Source: Candidatus Nealsonbacteria bacterium (GTDB taxonomy: Bacteria > Patescibacteriota > Minisyncoccia > Minisyncoccales > CAZKCU01). Taken from it: a stretch of DNA of 64,000 bases. Under the pieces are notes generated by a model that was given only the letters and a program-made list of their open reading frames with translations, had not been told where the DNA came from and searched no databases. A program made the position numbers and the translations under genes. The stretch spans positions 189,307 to 253,306 of the forward strand of contig CP179888.1 in assembly GCA_047456305.1 (NCBI GenBank). The letters run 5' to 3'. Below are positions 2,490 to 28,648 of the stretch, one piece after another. Numbering within the stretch: position 1 is the first letter of the stretch; the number at the start of each line of letters is the position of its first letter.

Positions 2490-2575
2490 CGGAGGGGGTG
2501 AGATTTGAACTCACGAGGGCCTTTCAGCCCTAGTAGTTTTCAAGACTACTTGGGACAACCACTCCCGACCCCTCC
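2490..2575 (-). tRNA. tRNA-Ser(UGA), type II with long variable arm
   Basis: Hand-folded 86-nt cloverleaf. Acceptor GGAGGGG/CCCCTCC, anticodon loop CTTGAAA, variable arm GGGCTGAAAGGCCC, T-loop GTTCAAATC. No encoded CCA. Confidence 0.85.
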
Positions 2576-3589
2576 CAGCATAAGTTTGTATCTTTTCTGA
2601 ATGTTTGGATTATGGGTGCCTATTAAATCAAAGTACTTCATAATCTCGCTCTGATTTTCTAATTGGACATTTCTTTTGTTACGAATCTTTGGAGAAAAAT
2701 CTAATTCTTTCAATATTCTAACAACCGAAGAACAAAGTGATGTTGAGTAACTCGTAAAACATAATCGCGGATAACAATAAGTTCTCCCATTAATTCGGTG
2801 ATATTCGCGAAATAGACATCCATCTGTATCAATCAAACCTTTGATACAAGAAATTTTAAAAGATTTGTTCCTTTTAATCCATTCGGGAATATCCAAGTTT
2901 TGTTTTAATTTGTTGCCGATTTTTAAACCTATTGATTTACAAAACATTACTAATTTTGTGCGTGAAACAACAACATCAACTGTCGACTTATGTTTATTAT
3001 AAATACTTGGTTCTACTTTAAAAAGTTTTTTTATAAGACTCCTGACAAAAATACTATAAAGTTTCTCGGTCCCGCGATTTAGTGAAACAATCACTTGTTT
3101 TTTCGCAATTCCACCATCACCAATCATAATTCCGACAAATTCAGCTAGTTCTTCTGAGAAACGTGGTTTTTTAATTGGTTTAGTAACTCCAACAATGAGG
3201 TTTTTTCTATATTTGCCTTCTCTTTCCCACCACTCATACCATTTCTTTTTCCAATATTCAAGATCTCCTCCAATCCTTCCATATTTTTTTAATACCGCCT
3301 TTGCTCCTGCAGATGAACCAAGTGCTGTGTACCAATACCTGTCTCTTAACTCAATATTTGGAGGTATTTGGATTTTAGCTTTTTGAGACAAATCCTGAAC
3401 TACTCTCAGGGGCATAGAGTATTTTTCTCTTTTCCAGTCATTGAAAGTTCTTTTATGTACACCTATTATATCTGTGAGTTCAGCCCAAGAAAGTTTTAAT
3501 TTACCCACTGTTTTTGATAAAAAATGATACTGTTCACCAACTGGAAAAATAACTCTCTTTTCCATTTTAGAATTTAACAGTTCGGCCAT
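2546..3589 (-). CDS. free-standing LAGLIDADG-family homing endonuclease-like protein with N-terminal HTH
   Basis: 347 aa. Two LAGLIDADG motifs ('FVGIMIGDGGIA' and 'IKGLIDTDGCLF') and an N-terminal HTH-like segment 'LSWAELTDIIGVHKRTFNDWK'. The last ~30 nt overlap the 5' part of tRNA-Ser(UGA). Confidence 0.75.
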   Translation of the reverse strand: MAELLNSKMEKRVIFPVGEQYHFLSKTVGKLKLSWAELTDIIGVHKRTFNDWKREKYSMPLRVVQDLSQKAKIQIPPNIELRDRYWYTALGSSAGAKAVLKKYGRIGGDLEYWKKKWYEWWEREGKYRKNLIVGVTKPIKKPRFSEELAEFVGIMIGDGGIAKKQVIVSLNRGTEKLYSIFVRSLIKKLFKVEPSIYNKHKSTVDVVVSRTKLVMFCKSIGLKIGNKLKQNLDIPEWIKRNKSFKISCIKGLIDTDGCLFREYHRINGRTYCYPRLCFTSYSTSLCSSVVRILKELDFSPKIRNKRNVQLENQSEIMKYFDLIGTHNPNIQKRYKLMLGGVGSGCPK

Positions 3590-3663: not shown

Positions 3664-3752
3664 CGGAGAGGGTGGGATTCGAACCCACGAAGGGATATTA
3701 CTCCCTTACCTCATTAGCAGTGAGGGGCACTAGACCACTATGCGACCTCTCC
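3664..3752 (-). tRNA. tRNA-Ser(GCU), type II
   Basis: 89-nt cloverleaf. Acceptor GGAGAGG/CCTCTCC, anticodon loop CTGCTAA, long variable arm, T-loop GGTTCGAATCC. Confidence 0.85.
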
Positions 3753-19578: not shown

Positions 19579-22500
19579 ATGAAGAAATTAATTAAAAATT
19601 TTATTTTCGTAATTTTAATTTTCCTGATTATCTCGGGTATCTTTACCTTGTTTATCTCACCGCTTGAAAAAGAAAAAGAAATTTCTTTAACTCAATTAGT
19701 TGAAGAAATTAACCAGGAAAAAATTAAACAAATTACTATTTCTGGTTCAGAGCTTCAGATAATATACCAAGATGATACTAAAGCTAAATCTAGAAAAGAA
19801 ACAGAAACAGCTTTATCTGAATCTTTAATAAATTACGGAATAGATAAAGAAAAATTAAAAAAAGTGGAAATTGAAACAAAAAAAGAAAAAGAAAGTTTGT
19901 TTTGGTTATGGTCAACTCTAATAATTCTGCTTCCTTTAGTTTTATTTGGTTTATTTTTCTGGATGATGTTCCGTCAGGCCAAAACCGGAGTAATGCAGGC
20001 TTTTAATTTTTCAAAAGCCAAAGCTCGGCTTTTTGGCGCTGAAGGTCATCCAAAAGAAAAAATCAGTTTCAAAGATGTTGCCGGCTTAGAAGAGGCAAAA
20101 GAAGAACTAAAAGAAATCGTTGATTTCTTAAAAAATCCCAAAAAATATTTAAAGATGGGGGCGAGGATACCAAGAGGAGTTTTATTGATGGGGCCAGCTG
20201 GAACAGGAAAATGTGTAGTTGGAAGTACATTTATCTTAACTTCCAAGGGCTGGATAAAAATTCAAGATGTCCCTAAATATTTCAGAGTAAATGAAGAAAA
20301 TCAAGTAGCCGGCGCTGAAGTTTTCAGTATTAATCTAAAAACTTTAGAAAAGAAAAAAAACTTAGCCTCTCATTGGTATAATTTAGGGAAGCAAAAAACA
20401 ATTAAGATAACTTCTCGCAATGGAATCTCTCTTGAAGGAACACTAGAACATCCGGTAGTGATTACGGATAGAGATGGTAAAATGAAATTCAGAAAGTTAG
20501 AGGAAATTAAAAAAGGTGACCTTTTAGTTGTTAATTACAACCATCAAGTTTTTGGGAATTATAAAATTTTACCTGATAAGGAAACTGCTTATTTATTGGG
20601 TCTACTTTTGGGCGATGGCGGTTTATCAATTAAAAATAGAATATATTTTAGTAATGCAAATAAACAATTAGTTAAATTTGTTAAAAATTATTTCCAAAAA
20701 TATTTTGGTGTTATTCTTCATAAGGCTAAATCTAGAAAATACGATTGGCTCATTTCTGATTGGAAAGCTAAAGAAAAATTAAGAGAATATGGTATTTCAG
20801 AAAGTCATGCTAGAGGCAAAGAAATTCCAGAAAGTATAATATCCGGTCCTAAAGAATATCAAACTGAATTTATTAAGGGCTTATTTGACACGGATGGATC
20901 AGCAGGCCTCAAAAATTCGATTTTACAATTAGCCAGTGCCTCAAAGACACTAATTGCCCAGCTTCAAGTTCTGCTTCTCAATTTAGGAATAGTAAGCAAG
21001 ACAAGGAAAAAGCGTTCAAACCAAACTGGCGCTTATTATCATTATTTAGAAGTTTCAGGAGATTTTACTAAAAATTTCGCTCAAGAAATCGGATTTGAAA
21101 TAGAAGAAAAACAAAAAAAATTAGAAAAGATTCTAGCAAAAAGAAGAAATACAAATGTAAATACAGTTCCTTTTGCTGCAAAGAAAATTGAAACTCTCTG
21201 GCAATATTTAAAAAAAGATGGACGAAAATTTAATAGAGCTTTTTATAGAACTCTTACCTATAAGAGTATCAATGAATATATTAATAAAGTCCACAAAAAT
21301 CCTTCAAAACAAAAGGTAGATAAAATTTTAGAATTTTTTGAGAAAGAAAAAAAATCTATAAGAAATCTTTTAGAATTTAAACAATTATCAAAACTAGCCG
21401 ATAACACTTTCTTTTTCTCTCCTGTCATTGAAATAGAAAGAGGAAAAGATATAGTATATGATTTTACTGTTCCCAAAACTCATTCATTCGTAGCAAATGG
21501 ATTAATAAATCATAATACTTTATTAGCAAGAGCAGTTGCCGGTGAGGCTAATGTCCCTTTCTTTTCAATTGCTGGCTCAGAATTTATTGAGATGTTCGTA
21601 GGGGTTGGAAGCTCTCGAGTAAGAGATCTTTTCACTACTGCTAAAAAAGCAGCCCCTTCTTTGGTTTTTATTGATGAACTTGACGCTATTGGCAGACACC
21701 GGGGAGCTGGACTTGGCGGAGGACATGATGAAAGAGAGCAAACATTAAATCAAATTTTAGTAGAAATGGACGGCTTTGAAAGAGAAACAAATGTGATCAT
21801 TCTTTCAGCGACGAACAGGCCAGATATCCTGGACCCAGCTCTTTTGCGGCCCGGTAGATTTGATAGAAAAGTAGTTTTGGACTTGCCTGATATTAAGGGC
21901 CGGGAAGAAATTCTAAAAATTCATTGTCGAGGAAAACCCTTAGCCCTAAATATTAATTTGAGAGAAATTGCTGAAAGAACCCCAGGGTTTTCTGGTGCTG
22001 ATATAGCTAATGTTGTCAATGAAGCAGCGATTTTAGCTGCCAGAAGAAACAAAAACCAGGTTTATCAAGAAGAGTTTTTAGAATCAATTGAAAAAGTTTT
22101 ATTGGGTCCGGAAAGAAAAAGTCATATCTTGTCCAAAAAAGAAAAGGAAATCGCTGCTTTCCATGAAGCAGGTCACGCTTTGGTTTCTGCTTCTCTGCCT
22201 GAAGCTGAGCCGGTAAGGAAAATTTCAATTATTGCCAGAGGTATGGCTGCTGGCTATACCTTAAAAATGCCAGCTGAGGAGAGAAAAATTAAAACCAAAA
22301 AAGAATTTTTAGCTGAATTGGCAACTTTACTTGGTGGATACTGCGCTGAAAAATTGAAATTTAAAGAAATTACCACTGGGGCAGCTAATGATTTGAAAAG
22401 AGCTTCCGACTTAGCTAGAAAGTTGGTTAAAGAATACGGTATGTCTCCTTTAGGACCAATTTCTTTTGGTGAAAAAGAAGAATTGGTTTTCTTAGGAAAA

Positions 22501-22773
22501 GAGATTTCCGAGCAGAGAAATTATTCTGAAAAAGTAGCCGCTAAAATTGATAAAGAAGTTGAAAAATTTGTCAAAAATGCAGAAAAAGAAGCAACGAAAC
22601 TTTTATTCAAAAACAAAAATTTACTTGAAAAAATTGCCAAAACCTTAATTGAAAAAGAAACCATTGAAAAAGAGGAATTTGAGAGTTTAATTAAAGGAGA
22701 AAGGAAAACAGCCTACAAGAAATCCTTGTCAAAAACTGAAAAGCCAGTAAAAGTAAAAATTAGACAAGTGTAA
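19579..22773 (+). CDS. ftsH: ATP-dependent zinc metalloprotease FtsH, interrupted by an intein
   Basis: Two N-terminal TM helices. Walker A is split as 'GPAGTGK|C...HN|[11 protein letters not shown]'. Also Walker B 'VFIDELDA', SRH '[19 protein letters not shown]' and zinc site 'HEAGHAL'. Confidence 0.95.
20212..21516 (+). mobile_element. intein (435 aa) with LAGLIDADG homing-endonuclease domain in the FtsH P-loop
   Basis: Starts with Cys1 ('[13 protein letters not shown]', block A). Block B is 'GTLEHPVV'. LAGLIDADG motifs are '[10 protein letters not shown]' and '[10 protein letters not shown]'. Blocks F/G are '[21 protein letters not shown]' followed by the +1 Thr of GKT. Its removal restores '[18 protein letters not shown]'. 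Confidence 0.9.
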
Positions 22774-22776
22774 CAA

Positions 22777-22848
22777 GGGCACGTAGTTCATTGGTAGAAC
22801 GCTTCTCTTATAAAGAAGAGGTAGAAGGTTCGATCCCTTCCGTGCCCA
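22777..22848 (+). tRNA. tRNA-Ile(UAU)
   Basis: 72 nt starting 3 nt after the ftsH stop. Acceptor GGGCACG/CGTGCCC, anticodon stem CTTCT/AGAAG, loop CTTATAA (anticodon TAT), T-arm GAAGG-TTCGATC-CCTTC. Confidence 0.8.
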
Positions 22849-22855
22849 CACAAAT

Positions 22856-22929
22856 GGGCGCTTGGCGCAGTGGTTTAGCGCGTCTCGGTGACATCGAGAA
22901 GGTCGTGGGTTCAAATCCCTCAGCGCCCA
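22856..22929 (+). tRNA. tRNA-Val(GAC)
   Basis: Acceptor GGGCGCT/AGCGCCC, anticodon stem TCTCG/CGAGA, loop GTGACAT, T-loop GGTTCAAATCC. Confidence 0.8.
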
Positions 22930-22930
22930 C

Positions 22931-23611
22931 ATGCAACCGAAAATTATAGTCAAAGAGGATAAATCCTCTTTTCCATCCTTCGCTGCGGCTCGGCTATATG
23001 AAGATGAAAATGTTTTAGTAATTGATAAACCAGCAGGGGTAAATTCTGACGACTTTAAAAAGAGGGTTCACAGATTAGATAAAGACACTTCGGGAATATT
23101 TCTGGTAGCAAAAAACGATAGGGCCTTAGATTTTTTGCAAGAACAATTTAAAAACAGAAAAGTAAAAAAGAAATATTTAGCCCTGGTAATCGGCAATCTG
23201 AAAAATAACGAAGGTGAGATTGAAACCCTTATTGGCCGCTCACCGGGAAACAGAAGGAAACAAAAAGTATACTTGCCTCACGAACCAGGCTCCCAAGGAA
23301 AAAGAATTGCTGTTACCAAATATAAAGTGTTGCAAAGATTTAAAGATTATGATTTGATTGAGGTTGAGCCTCTTTCAGGCAGGAAGCATCAGATTAGAAC
23401 CCATTTTGCTTATTTGGGCCACCCCATAGCCGGTGACAAACTATATGGGTTTAAAAACCAGCTCTGCCCTAAAGAATTAAAAAGACAATTTTTACATGCC
23501 GGTTATCTTAAAATAAAGTTAACCGGTGGAGAAGTAAAGCCCACTGTTCACACAGAGGAATTTAAATCGGAATTGCCTGAAGATCTAAAAAAAGTTATTA
23601 AAAACTTATGA
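22931..23611 (+). CDS. RluA-family pseudouridine synthase (no S4 domain)
   Basis: 226 aa. '[16 protein letters not shown]', catalytic '[15 protein letters not shown]', '[24 protein letters not shown]'. The ATG is 1 nt after tRNA-Val. The N-terminal 20 aa are encoded by a dispersed hairpin repeat. Confidence 0.85.
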
Positions 23612-26902: not shown

Positions 26903-26974
26903 GGTCGCGTACCCAAGTAGCTAGGGAATGGTCTGCAAAACCATTATACGTGGGTGCAAATCCCACCGCGACCT
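26903..26974 (+). tRNA. tRNA-Cys(GCA)
   Basis: 72 nt. Acceptor GGTCGCG/CGCGACC, anticodon stem ATGGT/ACCAT, loop CTGCAAA, T-arm GTGGG-TGCAAAT-CCCAC, discriminator T. Confidence 0.8.
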
Positions 26975-26977
26975 CAT

Positions 26978-27064
26978 GCCGGGGTGGTGGAATCGCTAGA
27001 CACGAAGGACTTAAAATCCTTTGGAGGAAATCCCTCCGTGCGGGTTGGAGTCCCGCCCCCGGCA
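26978..27064 (+). tRNA. tRNA-Leu(UAA), type II
   Basis: 87 nt. Acceptor GCCGGGG/CCCCGGC, anticodon stem AAGGA/TCCTT, loop CTTAAAA, long variable arm, T-arm with GTTGGAGTC. Confidence 0.85.
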
Positions 27065-27077
27065 CATTTTTTAAAAT

Positions 27078-27824
27078 ATGGGAAATGTATATACAAGGCA
27101 CATTAATCACAACTTCTTTAAAAAATGGAACTCCAAGATGAGTTATGTTTTAGGCTATATTGTAGCCGATGGTTGTATTGCAATAAGCAAAGATAGAAAA
27201 AGCCATCCTTTTACATTAAATATAACTTCTGCTGATTTGAAGCACTTATATTTGCTTAAAGAAACACTAGAATCTGAACATAAGATTAGTAAAAAATCTC
27301 GAAAAGCGGATAATAACGGATATCAATTACAAATTCGTAACCATATAATAACTAAAGATTTGATGAATTTAGGGATATTCCCTAGGAAAACATATAATTT
27401 AAATCCTATAAAAGTTCCAGAAAAATATTTCCCTGATTTTATTCGGGGATTTTTTGATGGTGACGGTTCAGTTTATATTTATAAAGTTAACGGAGTTCCG
27501 CAAATTAAGGCTTCGTTTAGCAATCCGAGCTTACCTTTTATTGCCAAACTCAACCAAGATCTTTGTAGAAAAATGGGAATTTCTATGAAAACCATCCATG
27601 AAGATAAGAATAAAAGAAGAAAGATTCCTTTATACTATATTGATTTTTATATCGATGATTGTGAAAAATTTGCTGAATTTATGTACCGAAACAACTCCTC
27701 TTTATTTCTTCTTCGCAAATGCAAAATTTTTGAAAAATGGAAATTGATAAAAAGGCGACATTATATAAAACAAAATTATCCTTCAAAAGTAGGCTGGCAT
27801 TTAAACCAAAAAGTCTTCACTTAA
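27078..27824 (+). CDS. free-standing LAGLIDADG-family homing endonuclease-like protein
   Basis: 248 aa. Two motifs, 'LGYIVADGCIA' and 'IRGFFDGDGSV'. Starts 13 nt after tRNA-Leu(UAA). The true start may be the internal Met at 27139. Confidence 0.75.
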   Translation: MGNVYTRHINHNFFKKWNSKMSYVLGYIVADGCIAISKDRKSHPFTLNITSADLKHLYLLKETLESEHKISKKSRKADNNGYQLQIRNHIITKDLMNLGIFPRKTYNLNPIKVPEKYFPDFIRGFFDGDGSVYIYKVNGVPQIKASFSNPSLPFIAKLNQDLCRKMGISMKTIHEDKNKRRKIPLYYIDFYIDDCEKFAEFMYRNNSSLFLLRKCKIFEKWKLIKRRHYIKQNYPSKVGWHLNQKVFT

Positions 27825-27983
27825 AAACTGCCAAAGAACCTGATAAAAATATCGGCTCGAACCACATTTAGTAAAAGAAAATTTTTAATCATTTTATTAT
27901 TTAAAATTTTCATCTGCGTATAATCAAAGGTCGAAGATAAAAGTGGAATGAAACAAAGAAGATAAATAAACAACTTTTATTTT

Positions 27984-28496
27984 ATGGAAAAATTAAATCC
28001 TAAAGCAGTTTGGATATTCTTTTTCCAATTCCTTAGTCTTGGATTAATTTTAGCTTTAATGCTAGGATATTTCTTTTGGGCACTTATGGTTAAATTTGAG
28101 TTTAATTGGTGGATAGTAATTCTCTTTTTGGCCGTTATTTGGATTTTTGGTAGTTATGGTTGGGCTAAATTATATTACAATTTCTATAAGTTTGAACTTA
28201 CTGAGGAAGCCTTTAAAAAAGAGCATGGTGTAATTTGGAAGCGATATATTTCTATCCCTTATGAAAGGATTCAAAATATAGATATTCACCGTGGAATACT
28301 TGCCCGGATTTTAGGTTTAAGCGATCTTATGATTCAAACTGCCGGCTATACTGGAGTCTACCGAGGGGGTGGTCTTCTGGGTACATTGGGAGGAAGAGAT
28401 CCTGAAGGAAAGCTTCCTGGTCTTTCTAAAGAAAGAGCTGAAGAAATAAGAGAAGAGTTAATAAGAAGAACAAGGGGAACAAAATCAGGATTATAA
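27984..28496 (+). CDS. bacterial PH-domain (bPH_2, YdbS/YdbT-like) membrane protein
   Basis: 170 aa. Two N-terminal TM helices, then 'ISIPYERIQNIDIHRGILARILGLSDLMIQTAG'. Confidence 0.65.
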   Translation: MEKLNPKAVWIFFFQFLSLGLILALMLGYFFWALMVKFEFNWWIVILFLAVIWIFGSYGWAKLYYNFYKFELTEEAFKKEHGVIWKRYISIPYERIQNIDIHRGILARILGLSDLMIQTAGYTGVYRGGGLLGTLGGRDPEGKLPGLSKERAEEIREELIRRTRGTKSGL

Positions 28497-28586
28497 AAAG
28501 GAATTTGCTAAAATTCTTAAATACATTGGGATTGGTTGTAGCTAGAATCTTGTTTTCCAACCCTCAAAGAATTTACCGCCGAATTA

Positions 28587-28648
28587 AAATAGCCCCGCTG
28601 AAAGCGGGGCTATTTTAGTTTACAGAGAACCGTTCTCTGTAAATTTTT
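28587..28648. terminator. two adjacent terminator hairpins between convergent genes
   Basis: AAAATAGCCCCGC-TGAAA-GCGGGGCTATTTT followed by TTTACAGAGAAC-C-GTTCTCTGTAAATTTTT. The second abuts the stop of the minus-strand 3D-domain gene. Confidence 0.6.

What the first reader, a model, noticed from the sequence alone, without database searches (positions are those of the whole stretch)
20212..21516. Intein with homing endonuclease splitting the Walker A loop of FtsH
A 435-aa insertion begins with Cys right after GPAGTGK and ends ...NGLINHN before the Thr of GKT. It has canonical blocks A, B, F and G and two LAGLIDADG motifs, and excision restores a perfect P-loop. FtsH is essential, so splicing must be efficient. 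P-loops are known intein hot spots, but I cannot say from memory whether an FtsH allele at this site has been catalogued.
Basis: partly seen in the sequence, partly recalled or inferred. Interest (0 to 1): 0.6.

Follow-up and report, generated by a model that had tools for sequence, protein, structure and literature searches.

The report
Mobile intein splitting FtsH's ATP-binding loop
The essential membrane protease FtsH of this small-genome (Patescibacteria/CPR) bacterium is interrupted, in the middle of its ATP-binding loop, by an ordinary self-splicing intein that carries a homing endonuclease; it is a real mobile element of a well-known kind, and the same insertion is already present, undescribed, in many public genomes.

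Summary
Bases 20212-21516 encode a 435-aa in-frame insertion between Lys and Thr of the FtsH Walker A motif (GPAGTGK|C...HN|T).

It is a canonical class-1 intein:
- Pfam and NCBIfam intein and LAGLIDADG models pass their cut-offs.
- All splicing residues are present.
- A high-confidence model (pLDDT 93.9) matches solved endonuclease-bearing inteins.

A syntenic contig about 95% identical in DNA (L001) has an empty site. Its FtsH is 629 aa, exactly the predicted spliced length, and the alignment break falls at the intein's position.

The element belongs to a clade of inteins that target Walker A loops. At least 31 of the 80 best genome hits are FtsH genes with an intein at this same site, mostly Patescibacteria plus some Acidobacteriota. 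Intein and host similarity are uncorrelated, and host DNA at the junction is unusually divergent; both fit spread by homing.

Relatives also carry FtsH inteins at three other sites, sometimes two per gene. I found no paper describing FtsH inteins.

Verdict: a new member of a known kind, of modest interest. Splicing and endonuclease activity are inferred, not shown.

The parts
19579..22773 (+). ftsH precursor gene (1064 codons plus stop), made of N-extein, intein and C-extein
   Evidence: Single ORF. TIGR01241 FtsH_fam 762.6 bits. Pfam FtsH_ext, AAA, AAA_lid_3 and Peptidase_M41.
19579..20211 (+). N-extein (aa 1-211): membrane anchor, extracytoplasmic domain and the start of the AAA+ module, ending in GPAGTGK
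   Evidence: Collinear with empty-site FtsH P0047 from L001.
20212..21516 (+). Intein, 435 aa: a HINT splicing domain split by a LAGLIDADG endonuclease and a helical accessory domain
   Evidence: Pfam and NCBIfam hits. AF2 model with pLDDT 93.9. Foldseek matches to the TliVMA intein 7qss (TM 0.67) and PI-PfuI 1dq3 (TM 0.63). This stretch is absent from the syntenic contig L001.
20212..20241 (+). Block A ([10 protein letters not shown]); Cys1 is the first nucleophile
   Evidence: C1 is present in 33 of 33 aligned relatives.
20437..20460 (+). Block B (GTLEHPVV) with T77 and H80
   Evidence: T77 is in 32/33 and H80 in 33/33 relatives.
20587..20622 (+). First LAGLIDADG motif ([12 protein letters not shown]); D135 is the putative metal-binding residue
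   Evidence: G134-D135-G136 is invariant among the five full-length FtsH site-a inteins.
20866..20901 (+). Second LAGLIDADG motif ([12 protein letters not shown]); D228 is the putative metal-binding residue
   Evidence: D228 is in 33/34 relatives. K203 (34/34) is also conserved.
21142..21405 (+). Helical accessory domain (about aa 311-398) between the endonuclease core and block F
   Evidence: Helices at 323-335, 342-345, 348-358, 366-379, 381-385 and 387-395, with pLDDT 80-94. By analogy with the accessory domains of VMA inteins (PMC8966425). The domain limits are approximate.
21454..21516 (+). Blocks F ([14 protein letters not shown]; D417, H424) and G (NGLINHN; H434, N435)
   Evidence: TIGR01443 matches above its cut-off. 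H434 and N435 are in 34/34 relatives.
21517..21519 (+). +1 Thr codon, the C-extein nucleophile and the Thr of Walker A GKT
   Evidence: Among relatives the +1 residue is Thr in 22 and Ser in 11.
21517..22773 (+). C-extein: the rest of the AAA+ module, the lid and the M41 zinc protease (HEAGH)
20152..20211 (+). Upstream part of the divergent extein tract next to the insertion (spliced nt 574-633)
   Evidence: Window-specific substitutions cluster here. dS is 0.90 in the tract against 0.14 and 0.39 elsewhere.
21517..21666 (+). Downstream part of the divergent extein tract (spliced nt 634-783); a candidate co-conversion tract
   Evidence: 32 of 107 window-specific changes fall in 210 nt, against 11.9 expected. 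No 210-nt window reached this count in 5000 permutations.

Best explanation
This is a canonical class-1 intein with a nested double-motif LAGLIDADG homing endonuclease. It is inserted between Lys and Thr of the FtsH Walker A motif.

**Shown**
- The element's sequence and predicted fold.
- Its exact boundaries.
- Its absence from a syntenic strain about 95% identical in DNA.
- Its membership in a clade of FtsH P-loop inteins.

**Inferred splicing mechanism (the established class-1 pathway)**
1. The gene is translated as a 1064-aa precursor whose ATP-binding loop is split, so the precursor should be inactive.
2. Cys1 undergoes an N-S acyl shift, assisted by block B T77/H80.
3. The thioester is transferred to the side chain of Thr+1.
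4. Asn435 cyclises, assisted by H434, H424 and D417, and releases the intein.
5. An O-N shift yields a 629-aa FtsH with an intact GPAGTGKT loop.

**Inferred mobility**
- The free intein, or the precursor, cuts intein-less ftsH alleles at the P-loop coding sequence.
- Repair from the occupied allele copies the intein in, together with some flanking extein DNA.
- This accounts for the patchy distribution and for an intein history that does not track the host's.
For: **Intein identity**
- Family models and motifs.
- Near-invariance of C1, T77, H80, D417, H434 and N435, and of the endonuclease residues K203, D226 and D228, across 35 relatives. G134-D135-G136 is invariant among the five FtsH site-a inteins.
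- Predicted structure with pLDDT 93.9 and pTM 0.92.
- Best structural matches are endonuclease-bearing inteins: TliVMA 7qss (E 1.8e-25, TM 0.67), PI-PfuI, PhoVMA, PI-TkoII and PI-SceI. The endonuclease core also matches I-DmoI.

**Clean insertion into a working gene**
- Empty-site orthologues have the same length as the spliced product and are syntenic.
- Extein dN/dS is 0.079, so the host gene is functional.

**Evidence for mobility**
- 31 of the 80 best genome loci are FtsH genes with an intein at GK|C...HN|T, spread over many Patescibacteria lineages plus Acidobacteriota.
- Pairwise intein and extein identities are uncorrelated (Spearman rho 0.03, 253 pairs).
- The closest intein, P0167, is 67% identical but sits in an FtsH only 57% identical.
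- Window-specific substitutions cluster around the junction (0 of 5000 permutations).
Against: - There is no experimental evidence here for splicing or for DNA cleavage.
- The divergent tract also covers a second known FtsH intein site (site b, spliced nt 729).
- A second divergent patch at spliced nt 1020-1140 is not adjacent to any insertion. The mosaic pattern could therefore reflect ordinary recombination rather than homing.
- No donor was identified. The closest intein is 67% identical.
- The intein's GC (0.295) differs little from the N-extein's (0.308), so composition gives no sign of recent import.
- No related intein was found on viral contigs, so no vector is known.
- The neighbour-joining tree has no bootstrap support values.
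Confidence: 0.85

Rival explanations
1. The intein still splices, but its endonuclease is dead. It would then be a vertically inherited passenger that persists only because imprecise loss would destroy an essential P-loop.
For: - Many large inteins carry inactive endonucleases. PhoVMA is given as an example in PMC8966425.
- The window intein has no relative above 67% identity in about 15 billion proteins clustered at 50% identity. No very recent transfer is therefore documented.
Against: - Both LAGLIDADG acidic residues (D135, D228) and K203 are retained and conserved across the clade.
- The endonuclease and accessory domains are modelled with high confidence.
- Presence or absence differs between genomes about 95% identical in DNA.
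- Intein and host similarity are uncorrelated.
Confidence: 0.2
2. The intein has been co-opted as a post-translational switch. Splicing would be conditional on stress, redox state, metal or temperature, and would gate activation of the cell's main AAA+ membrane protease.
For: - Conditional splicing is documented for other P-loop inteins, such as Pho RadA and mycobacterial DnaB (abstracts of PMC4513877, PMC6195587 and PMC7360933, listed).
- Novikova et al. argue that retention in P-loops may be selected (PMC4760082).
- FtsH inteins recur at four conserved sites.
Against: - The intein has only one Cys (C1), and the +1 residue is Thr, so a disulfide trap is not possible.
- The closest relatives lack the intein altogether, so it is dispensable.
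- Nothing in the sequence points to a sensor.
Confidence: 0.1
3. The insertion is a non-splicing lineage-specific domain, or the gene is a disrupted pseudogene, or the arrangement is an assembly chimera.
For: Nothing specific. This is listed because splicing was not observed directly.
Against: - The reading frame is intact across 1064 codons.
- Every catalytic splicing residue is present.
- The exteins are under strong purifying selection (dN/dS 0.079).
- The identical architecture occurs in more than 30 independent assemblies, including a complete genome, CP011214.
- An unspliced insertion in GK|T would abolish nucleotide binding in an otherwise conserved FtsH.
Confidence: 0.03

Closest known systems
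Archaeal V-ATPase A-subunit inteins at the VMA-b site (TliVMA 7qss, PhoVMA 7qst)
   Same: - Best structural match (TM 0.67, E 1.8e-25).
- Same three-module build: HINT, LAGLIDADG endonuclease and accessory domain.
- Also inserted in the P-loop of an ATPase (PMC8966425).
   Different: - Only about 20-22% sequence identity.
- Different host protein and domain of life.
- The accessory domain here is all-helical and is not shown to be homologous.
PI-PfuI (Pyrococcus furiosus RNR intein, 1dq3)
   Same: - Best sequence match among solved structures (E 5e-11).
- Second-best fold match (TM 0.63).
- Double-motif LAGLIDADG endonuclease nested in a HINT domain.
   Different: - Its host is ribonucleotide reductase, not a P-loop.
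- It comes from a hyperthermophilic archaeon.
- 20% identity.
Inteins at the Walker A GK|T/S position of other NTPases: PhoH, DnaB site b, MutS, RuvB, RecA-like, CobA and clamp-loader inteins; also Pho RadA
   Same: - Same position within the motif (GK|C...HN|T/S) in nearly all sequence relatives.
- 26-34% identity over the full length.
- P-loops are a recognised intein hot spot (PMC4760082).
   Different: - Each host protein has its own intein clade in the NJ tree, and the FtsH inteins form a separate clade.
- PhoH and DnaB inteins are catalogued in the literature. I found no mention of FtsH inteins.
Archaeal LonB protease inteins
   Same: An AAA+ ATP-dependent protease that hosts inteins. 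It is listed among the top archaeal intein hosts, with 10 inteins (PMC4760082).
   Different: - Different protease family and a different domain of life.
- Relatedness of the inteins and of the insertion sites was not tested here.
FtsH site-a inteins already in public genomes (e.g. P0167; Woesebacteria CP011214, L012; Ryanbacteria MHNO01000013, L005; Parcubacteria GW2011 protein P0003)
   Same: - Same host gene, same insertion point and same domain build.
- 35-67% identity.
   Different: - The window's intein is a distinct, fairly deep lineage whose nearest relative is 67% identical.
- Its own closest FtsH relatives are intein-free.

Membership tests
Class-1 intein (HINT splicing domain) | Cys or Ser nucleophile as the first residue of the insertion | tested here: met
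   Cys1, TGT at 20212. Conserved in 33/33 relatives.
Class-1 intein (HINT splicing domain) | Block B TxxH motif | tested here: met
   T77-L-E-H80. TIGR01445 scores 35.6 bits against a cut-off of 24.5.
Class-1 intein (HINT splicing domain) | Block F Asp and His, and block G penultimate His with terminal Asn | tested here: met
   D417, H424, H434 and N435. TIGR01443 scores 29.9 bits against a cut-off of 15.6.
Class-1 intein (HINT splicing domain) | Cys, Ser or Thr as the first residue of the C-extein | tested here: met
   Thr, ACT at 21517. Relatives have Thr (22) or Ser (11).
Class-1 intein (HINT splicing domain) | HINT fold | tested here: met
   AF2 model with pLDDT 93.9. It matches full inteins and also mini-inteins (Ssp DnaB 6frg, Mxe GyrA 4oz6). 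This rests on a predicted structure, not a solved one.
Class-1 intein (HINT splicing domain) | In-frame insertion in a conserved host motif, whose removal restores the host protein | tested here: met
   The spliced product is 629 aa, collinear with and 95% identical to the intein-less orthologue P0047.
Class-1 intein (HINT splicing domain) | Autocatalytic protein splicing | not testable with these tools
   This needs expression of a mini-precursor, or proteomics.
LAGLIDADG homing endonuclease (monomeric, two motifs) | Two LAGLIDADG motifs, each ending in a conserved acidic residue | tested here: met
   LLGLLLGD135GG and IKGLFDTD228GS. Pfam LAGLIDADG_3 matches in 2 stretches, E 7.9e-25.
LAGLIDADG homing endonuclease (monomeric, two motifs) | Pseudo-dimeric alpha-beta-beta-alpha-beta-beta-alpha fold | tested here: met
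   The predicted secondary structure at 123-292 has this order. Foldseek matches I-DmoI (TM on target 0.72) and I-Tsp061I.
LAGLIDADG homing endonuclease (monomeric, two motifs) | Site-specific cleavage of the intein-less allele | not testable with these tools
   The candidate target from L001 is ATGGGGGCAGCTGGAACAGGAAAA|ACGATGCTCGCTAGAGCTGTGGCA.
LAGLIDADG homing endonuclease (monomeric, two motifs) | Footprints of mobility: presence/absence polymorphism, and a history that does not track the host's | tested here: met
   - Empty site in a genome about 95% identical in DNA.
- Spearman rho 0.03 between intein and extein identity.
- Closest intein 67% identical while its extein is 57% identical.
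- The junction-centred divergent tract is suggestive only.
Walker A (GK|T/S) intein clade | Insertion exactly between the Lys and the Thr/Ser of GxxxxGK[TS] | tested here: met
   GPAGTGK|C...HN|T. The same position is seen in the PhoH, DnaB, MutS, RuvB, RecA-like, CobA and clamp-loader relatives.
Bacterial intein-like (BIL) / non-splicing Hint domains (considered) | Located in variable, non-conserved regions of hypervariable proteins; usually lacks the +1 nucleophile and the endonuclease | tested here: not met
   This element sits in the most conserved motif of an essential enzyme, has Thr at +1 and carries an endonuclease. It is therefore not a BIL domain.

The most novel reading that the evidence does not exclude
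**Descriptive part.** FtsH is a previously undescribed major intein host, especially in Patescibacteria. It has at least four insertion sites in the AAA+ module:
- site a: Walker A GK|T
- site b: GVGA|S
- site c: sensor-1 A|TNRPD
- site d: AP|C, just before Walker B

Some genes carry two inteins. This part is largely shown here, and I estimate about 0.6 probability that it is truly unpublished.

**Functional part.** In these minimal cells the inteins would act as conditional post-translational gates on the only membrane AAA+ protease. This part is speculative.
Probability: 0.1. Interest if true: 0.6.

Novelty: new member of a known kind. Interest (0 to 1): 0.3.

Why it matters
**For annotation.** The gene should be called an intein-containing FtsH, not a 1064-aa 'AAA family ATPase' or 'hypothetical protein'. 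NCBIfam has exception models for intein-containing GyrA and RtcB, but none for FtsH appeared in the scan.

**For intein biology.**
- It adds a membrane-anchored AAA+ protease to the list of P-loop hosts.
- The occupied and empty alleles differ by about 5% in surrounding DNA. This gives a natural pair for testing homing and co-conversion in uncultured Patescibacteria.
- The clade is a source of Thr+1 inteins, each with a single Cys, from mesophilic, AT-rich genomes.

None of this changes what is understood about how inteins work.

Tried and rejected
**Literature.**
- I searched for FtsH with 'intein' or 'protein splicing', and for inteins in CPR/Patescibacteria.
- Every co-occurrence was unrelated. 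Examples: a phage PolB intein beside an FtsH-like gene, a chloroplast RPB2 intein, Methylococcus inteins in other genes, and prasinovirus PolB inteins.
- The supplementary tables of Novikova et al. are not held, so I cannot exclude that FtsH is listed there.

**Viral contigs.** A scan for FtsH-type inteins gave no confirmed hit.

**Substitution analyses.**
- A four-taxon 'unique substitution' analysis had little power because L004 is too divergent. I replaced it with a three-taxon test.
- I looked for the donor of the divergent junction tract. The first 18 nt downstream match the L004 empty allele, but the tract as a whole is not closer to L004 or to P0167. No donor was found.

**Composition.** Testing composition as a sign of import showed only a weak difference (GC3 0.19 against 0.25-0.27). 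I do not use it as evidence.

**Rejected readings.** A BIL domain, a pseudogene and an assembly chimera were considered and rejected (see the rival explanations).
Full report
**1. The observation**

- The window has one uninterrupted ORF at 19579..22773 (+), encoding 1064 aa.
- Reading the DNA: TGT (Cys) occupies 20212-20214, AAT (Asn) occupies 21514-21516, and ACT (Thr) follows. The finding's coordinates are therefore exact, covering 1305 nt or 435 codons.
- The protein reads ...[13 protein letters not shown]|[10 protein letters not shown]...[11 protein letters not shown]|[10 protein letters not shown].... Removing the insert gives GPAGTGKT, a perfect Walker A motif.
- The host is FtsH. NCBIfam TIGR01241 scores 762.6 bits (cut-off 600), and Pfam finds FtsH_ext, AAA, AAA_lid_3 and Peptidase_M41.

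**2. What the insert is**

- Family models:
  - Pfam Intein_splicing, E 2.7e-17.
  - Pfam LAGLIDADG_3, E 7.9e-25, two stretches.
  - NCBIfam intein N-terminal (TIGR01445) and C-terminal (TIGR01443) models, both above their curated cut-offs.
- Motifs are listed in the observation check.
- In an alignment of 35 relatives, these residues are at least 90% conserved: C1, T77, H80, K203, D226, D228, D417, H434 and N435. The +1 residue is Thr or Ser.
- The intein has a single cysteine, C1.
- An AlphaFold2 model built on that alignment is confident (mean pLDDT 93.9, pTM 0.92).
- Foldseek against the PDB puts endonuclease-bearing inteins first:
  - TliVMA 7qss, E 1.8e-25, TM 0.67.
  - PI-PfuI 1dq3, TM 0.63.
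  - PhoVMA, PI-TkoII and PI-SceI.
  - The middle module also matches free LAGLIDADG enzymes such as I-DmoI.
- Between the endonuclease core and block F lies a helical segment of about 90 residues. It corresponds in position to the 'accessory domains' described for VMA inteins (PMC8966425).

**3. It is an insertion relative to close relatives**

- Searching the predicted spliced FtsH (629 aa) found intein-less proteins of 629, 629 and 640 aa at 95%, 94% and 89% identity.
- The contig encoding the best one (L001, a JGI metagenome) has the same gene order as the window: GyrA, metallo-beta-lactamase fold protein, S1-domain protein, FtsH, pseudouridine synthase, L19, IF-2.
- L001 aligns to the window at about 95% nucleotide identity. 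The alignment stops at window 20211 and resumes at 21526.
- The spliced gene and the L001 gene are both 1890 nt and align without gaps.
- L002, L003 and L004 are further syntenic empty alleles.
- Extein dN/dS between the window and L001 is 0.079, so the interrupted gene is under the constraint expected of a working FtsH.
- No second ftsH lies in the window. The rest of the genome is unknown.

**4. Relatives of the intein**

- In the 5.8-billion-protein collection, the nearest hits are Patescibacteria/Parcubacteria FtsH proteins with an intein at the same junction, at 34-60% identity. Sources name them only 'hypothetical protein' or 'AAA family ATPase'.
- The next hits are inteins in PhoH, DnaB, a RecA-like protein, CobA and clamp-loader subunits. 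Nearly all of these are also inserted at GK|C...HN|T/S of Walker A.
- A scan of one genome per GTDB species:
  - 491 of them passed the tblastn check.
  - Of the best 80, 31 are FtsH genes with the intein at this site.
  - These lie in Ryan-, Kerfeld-, Nomura-, Woese- (complete genome CP011214), Ames-, Levyi-, Kuenen-, Shapiro-, Vogel- and Blackburn-bacteria, Paceibacterota, and Acidobacteriota (Pyrinomonadaceae).
  - The remainder include MutS (20), PhoH (7), MetK (6), RuvB (4) and DnaB (3).
- In a neighbour-joining tree without support values, the FtsH inteins form one clade and each other host has its own.
- An exhaustive HMMER search of 1.84 billion cluster representatives found 416 proteins at E <= 1e-30. 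The closest, P0167, is an FtsH with a site-a intein 67% identical to the window's.

**5. Evidence for mobility**

- Presence or absence differs between genomes about 95% identical in DNA.
- Across 23 FtsH genes (253 pairs), intein identity and extein identity are uncorrelated (Spearman rho 0.03). For example, L010 and L038 have exteins 89% identical and inteins 35% identical.
- The window's closest intein (67%) sits in an FtsH only 57% identical. On average exteins are much more conserved than inteins (60.5% against 41.4%).
- Substitutions specific to the window (sites where L001 = L002 but the window differs) cluster in spliced nt 573-783, straddling the junction at 633.
  - 32 of 107 fall there, against 11.9 expected.
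  - No 210-nt window reached that count in 5000 permutations.
  - dS in the tract is 0.90, against 0.14 upstream and 0.39 downstream.
  - This is what co-conversion of flanking exteins during homing would leave.
- The caveats on this tract (site b within it, the second patch, no donor) are set out under evidence against.

**6. How it most likely works**

- The splicing steps, the split P-loop of the precursor and the homing mechanism are set out in the best explanation. They follow the established class-1 pathway and are inferred, not shown.
- The intein lies in the cytoplasmic AAA+ module, downstream of the membrane anchor. Splicing would therefore occur in the cytoplasm on a membrane-tethered precursor.

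**7. Comparison with what is known, and novelty**

- P-loops of ATPases are a recognised intein hot spot. DnaB, MCM, RFC, PhoH, RadA, V-ATPase and the archaeal protease LonB are listed hosts (PMC4760082; PMC8966425).
- FtsH is absent from the main text and top-15 tables of that survey. No paper in the searchable library describes an FtsH intein.
- The allele is, however, abundant in public genome data. This is therefore a new, fairly deep-branching member of a known kind, not a new kind.
- Of some additional interest, related FtsH genes carry inteins at three other sites:
  - site b, GVGA|S...HN|SRVRDLF (P0115, P0153, L019, L071)
  - site c, AA|S...N|TNRPD in sensor-1 (P0066, P0071, P0136, L021, P0168)
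  - site d, NAP|C...HN|CIIFIDE before Walker B (L013, L017)
- Several of these genes hold two inteins.

**8. Verdict**

- Observation: confirmed.
- Interpretation: supported.
- Mechanism: canonical.
- Novelty: modest.
- Interest: 0.3.

Noticed in passing
window 27078-27824 (+); L004 13107-13808: - This is a free-standing double-motif LAGLIDADG endonuclease ORF of 248 aa (Pfam LAGLIDADG_3 and LAGLIDADG_1), directly after tRNA genes at 26903-27064.
- An 81% identical orthologue sits at the same locus in L004.
- The whole segment, window 26976-28647, is missing from the ~95%-identical contig L001. That segment also includes a bPH_2-domain ORF at 27984-28496.
- It looks like a second polymorphic mobile endonuclease gene, and it is not inside an rRNA or an intein.
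   Followed up: partly
window 2546-3589 (-): - A 347-aa ORF has a C-terminal LAGLIDADG_3 domain (motifs LAEFVGIMIGDGG and CIKGLIDTDGC) and an N-terminal extension of about 140 aa with no hit.
- It lies next to a tRNA gene at 3664-3752 (-).
- It matched my intein HMM only over the endonuclease part, so it is not an intein.
   Followed up: partly
relatives: P0066, P0071, P0136, P0115, P0153, P0168; loci L013, L017, L019, L021, L071: - FtsH genes of related Patescibacteria and of Acidobacteriota carry inteins at three other sites: GVGA|SRV, sensor-1 A|TNRPD, and AP|CIIFIDE before Walker B.
- The inteins at the first two sites mostly start with Ser.
- Several genes have two inteins, giving proteins of up to about 1500 aa.
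   Followed up: partly
window 21904-22023 (spliced ftsH nt 1021-1140): There is a second patch of window-specific substitutions in the C-extein: 22 of 107 within 120 nt. It is not adjacent to any known intein site and is unexplained. It may be an independent recombination tract.
   Followed up: no
L001 9942-10853 against window 22848-22997: The empty-site contig L001 has about 900 bp between the tRNA genes after ftsH and the pseudouridine synthase gene. This stretch has no counterpart in the window. I did not examine its content.
   Followed up: no
whole window: - Rfam finds 22 tRNA genes and no rRNA in the 64 kb.
- GC is 0.36.
- The neighbours include T4SS-pilin-like genes in the syntenic contigs.
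- The nearest named FtsH relatives are Patescibacteria (Pacebacteria and Nealsonbacteria labels).
   Followed up: partly
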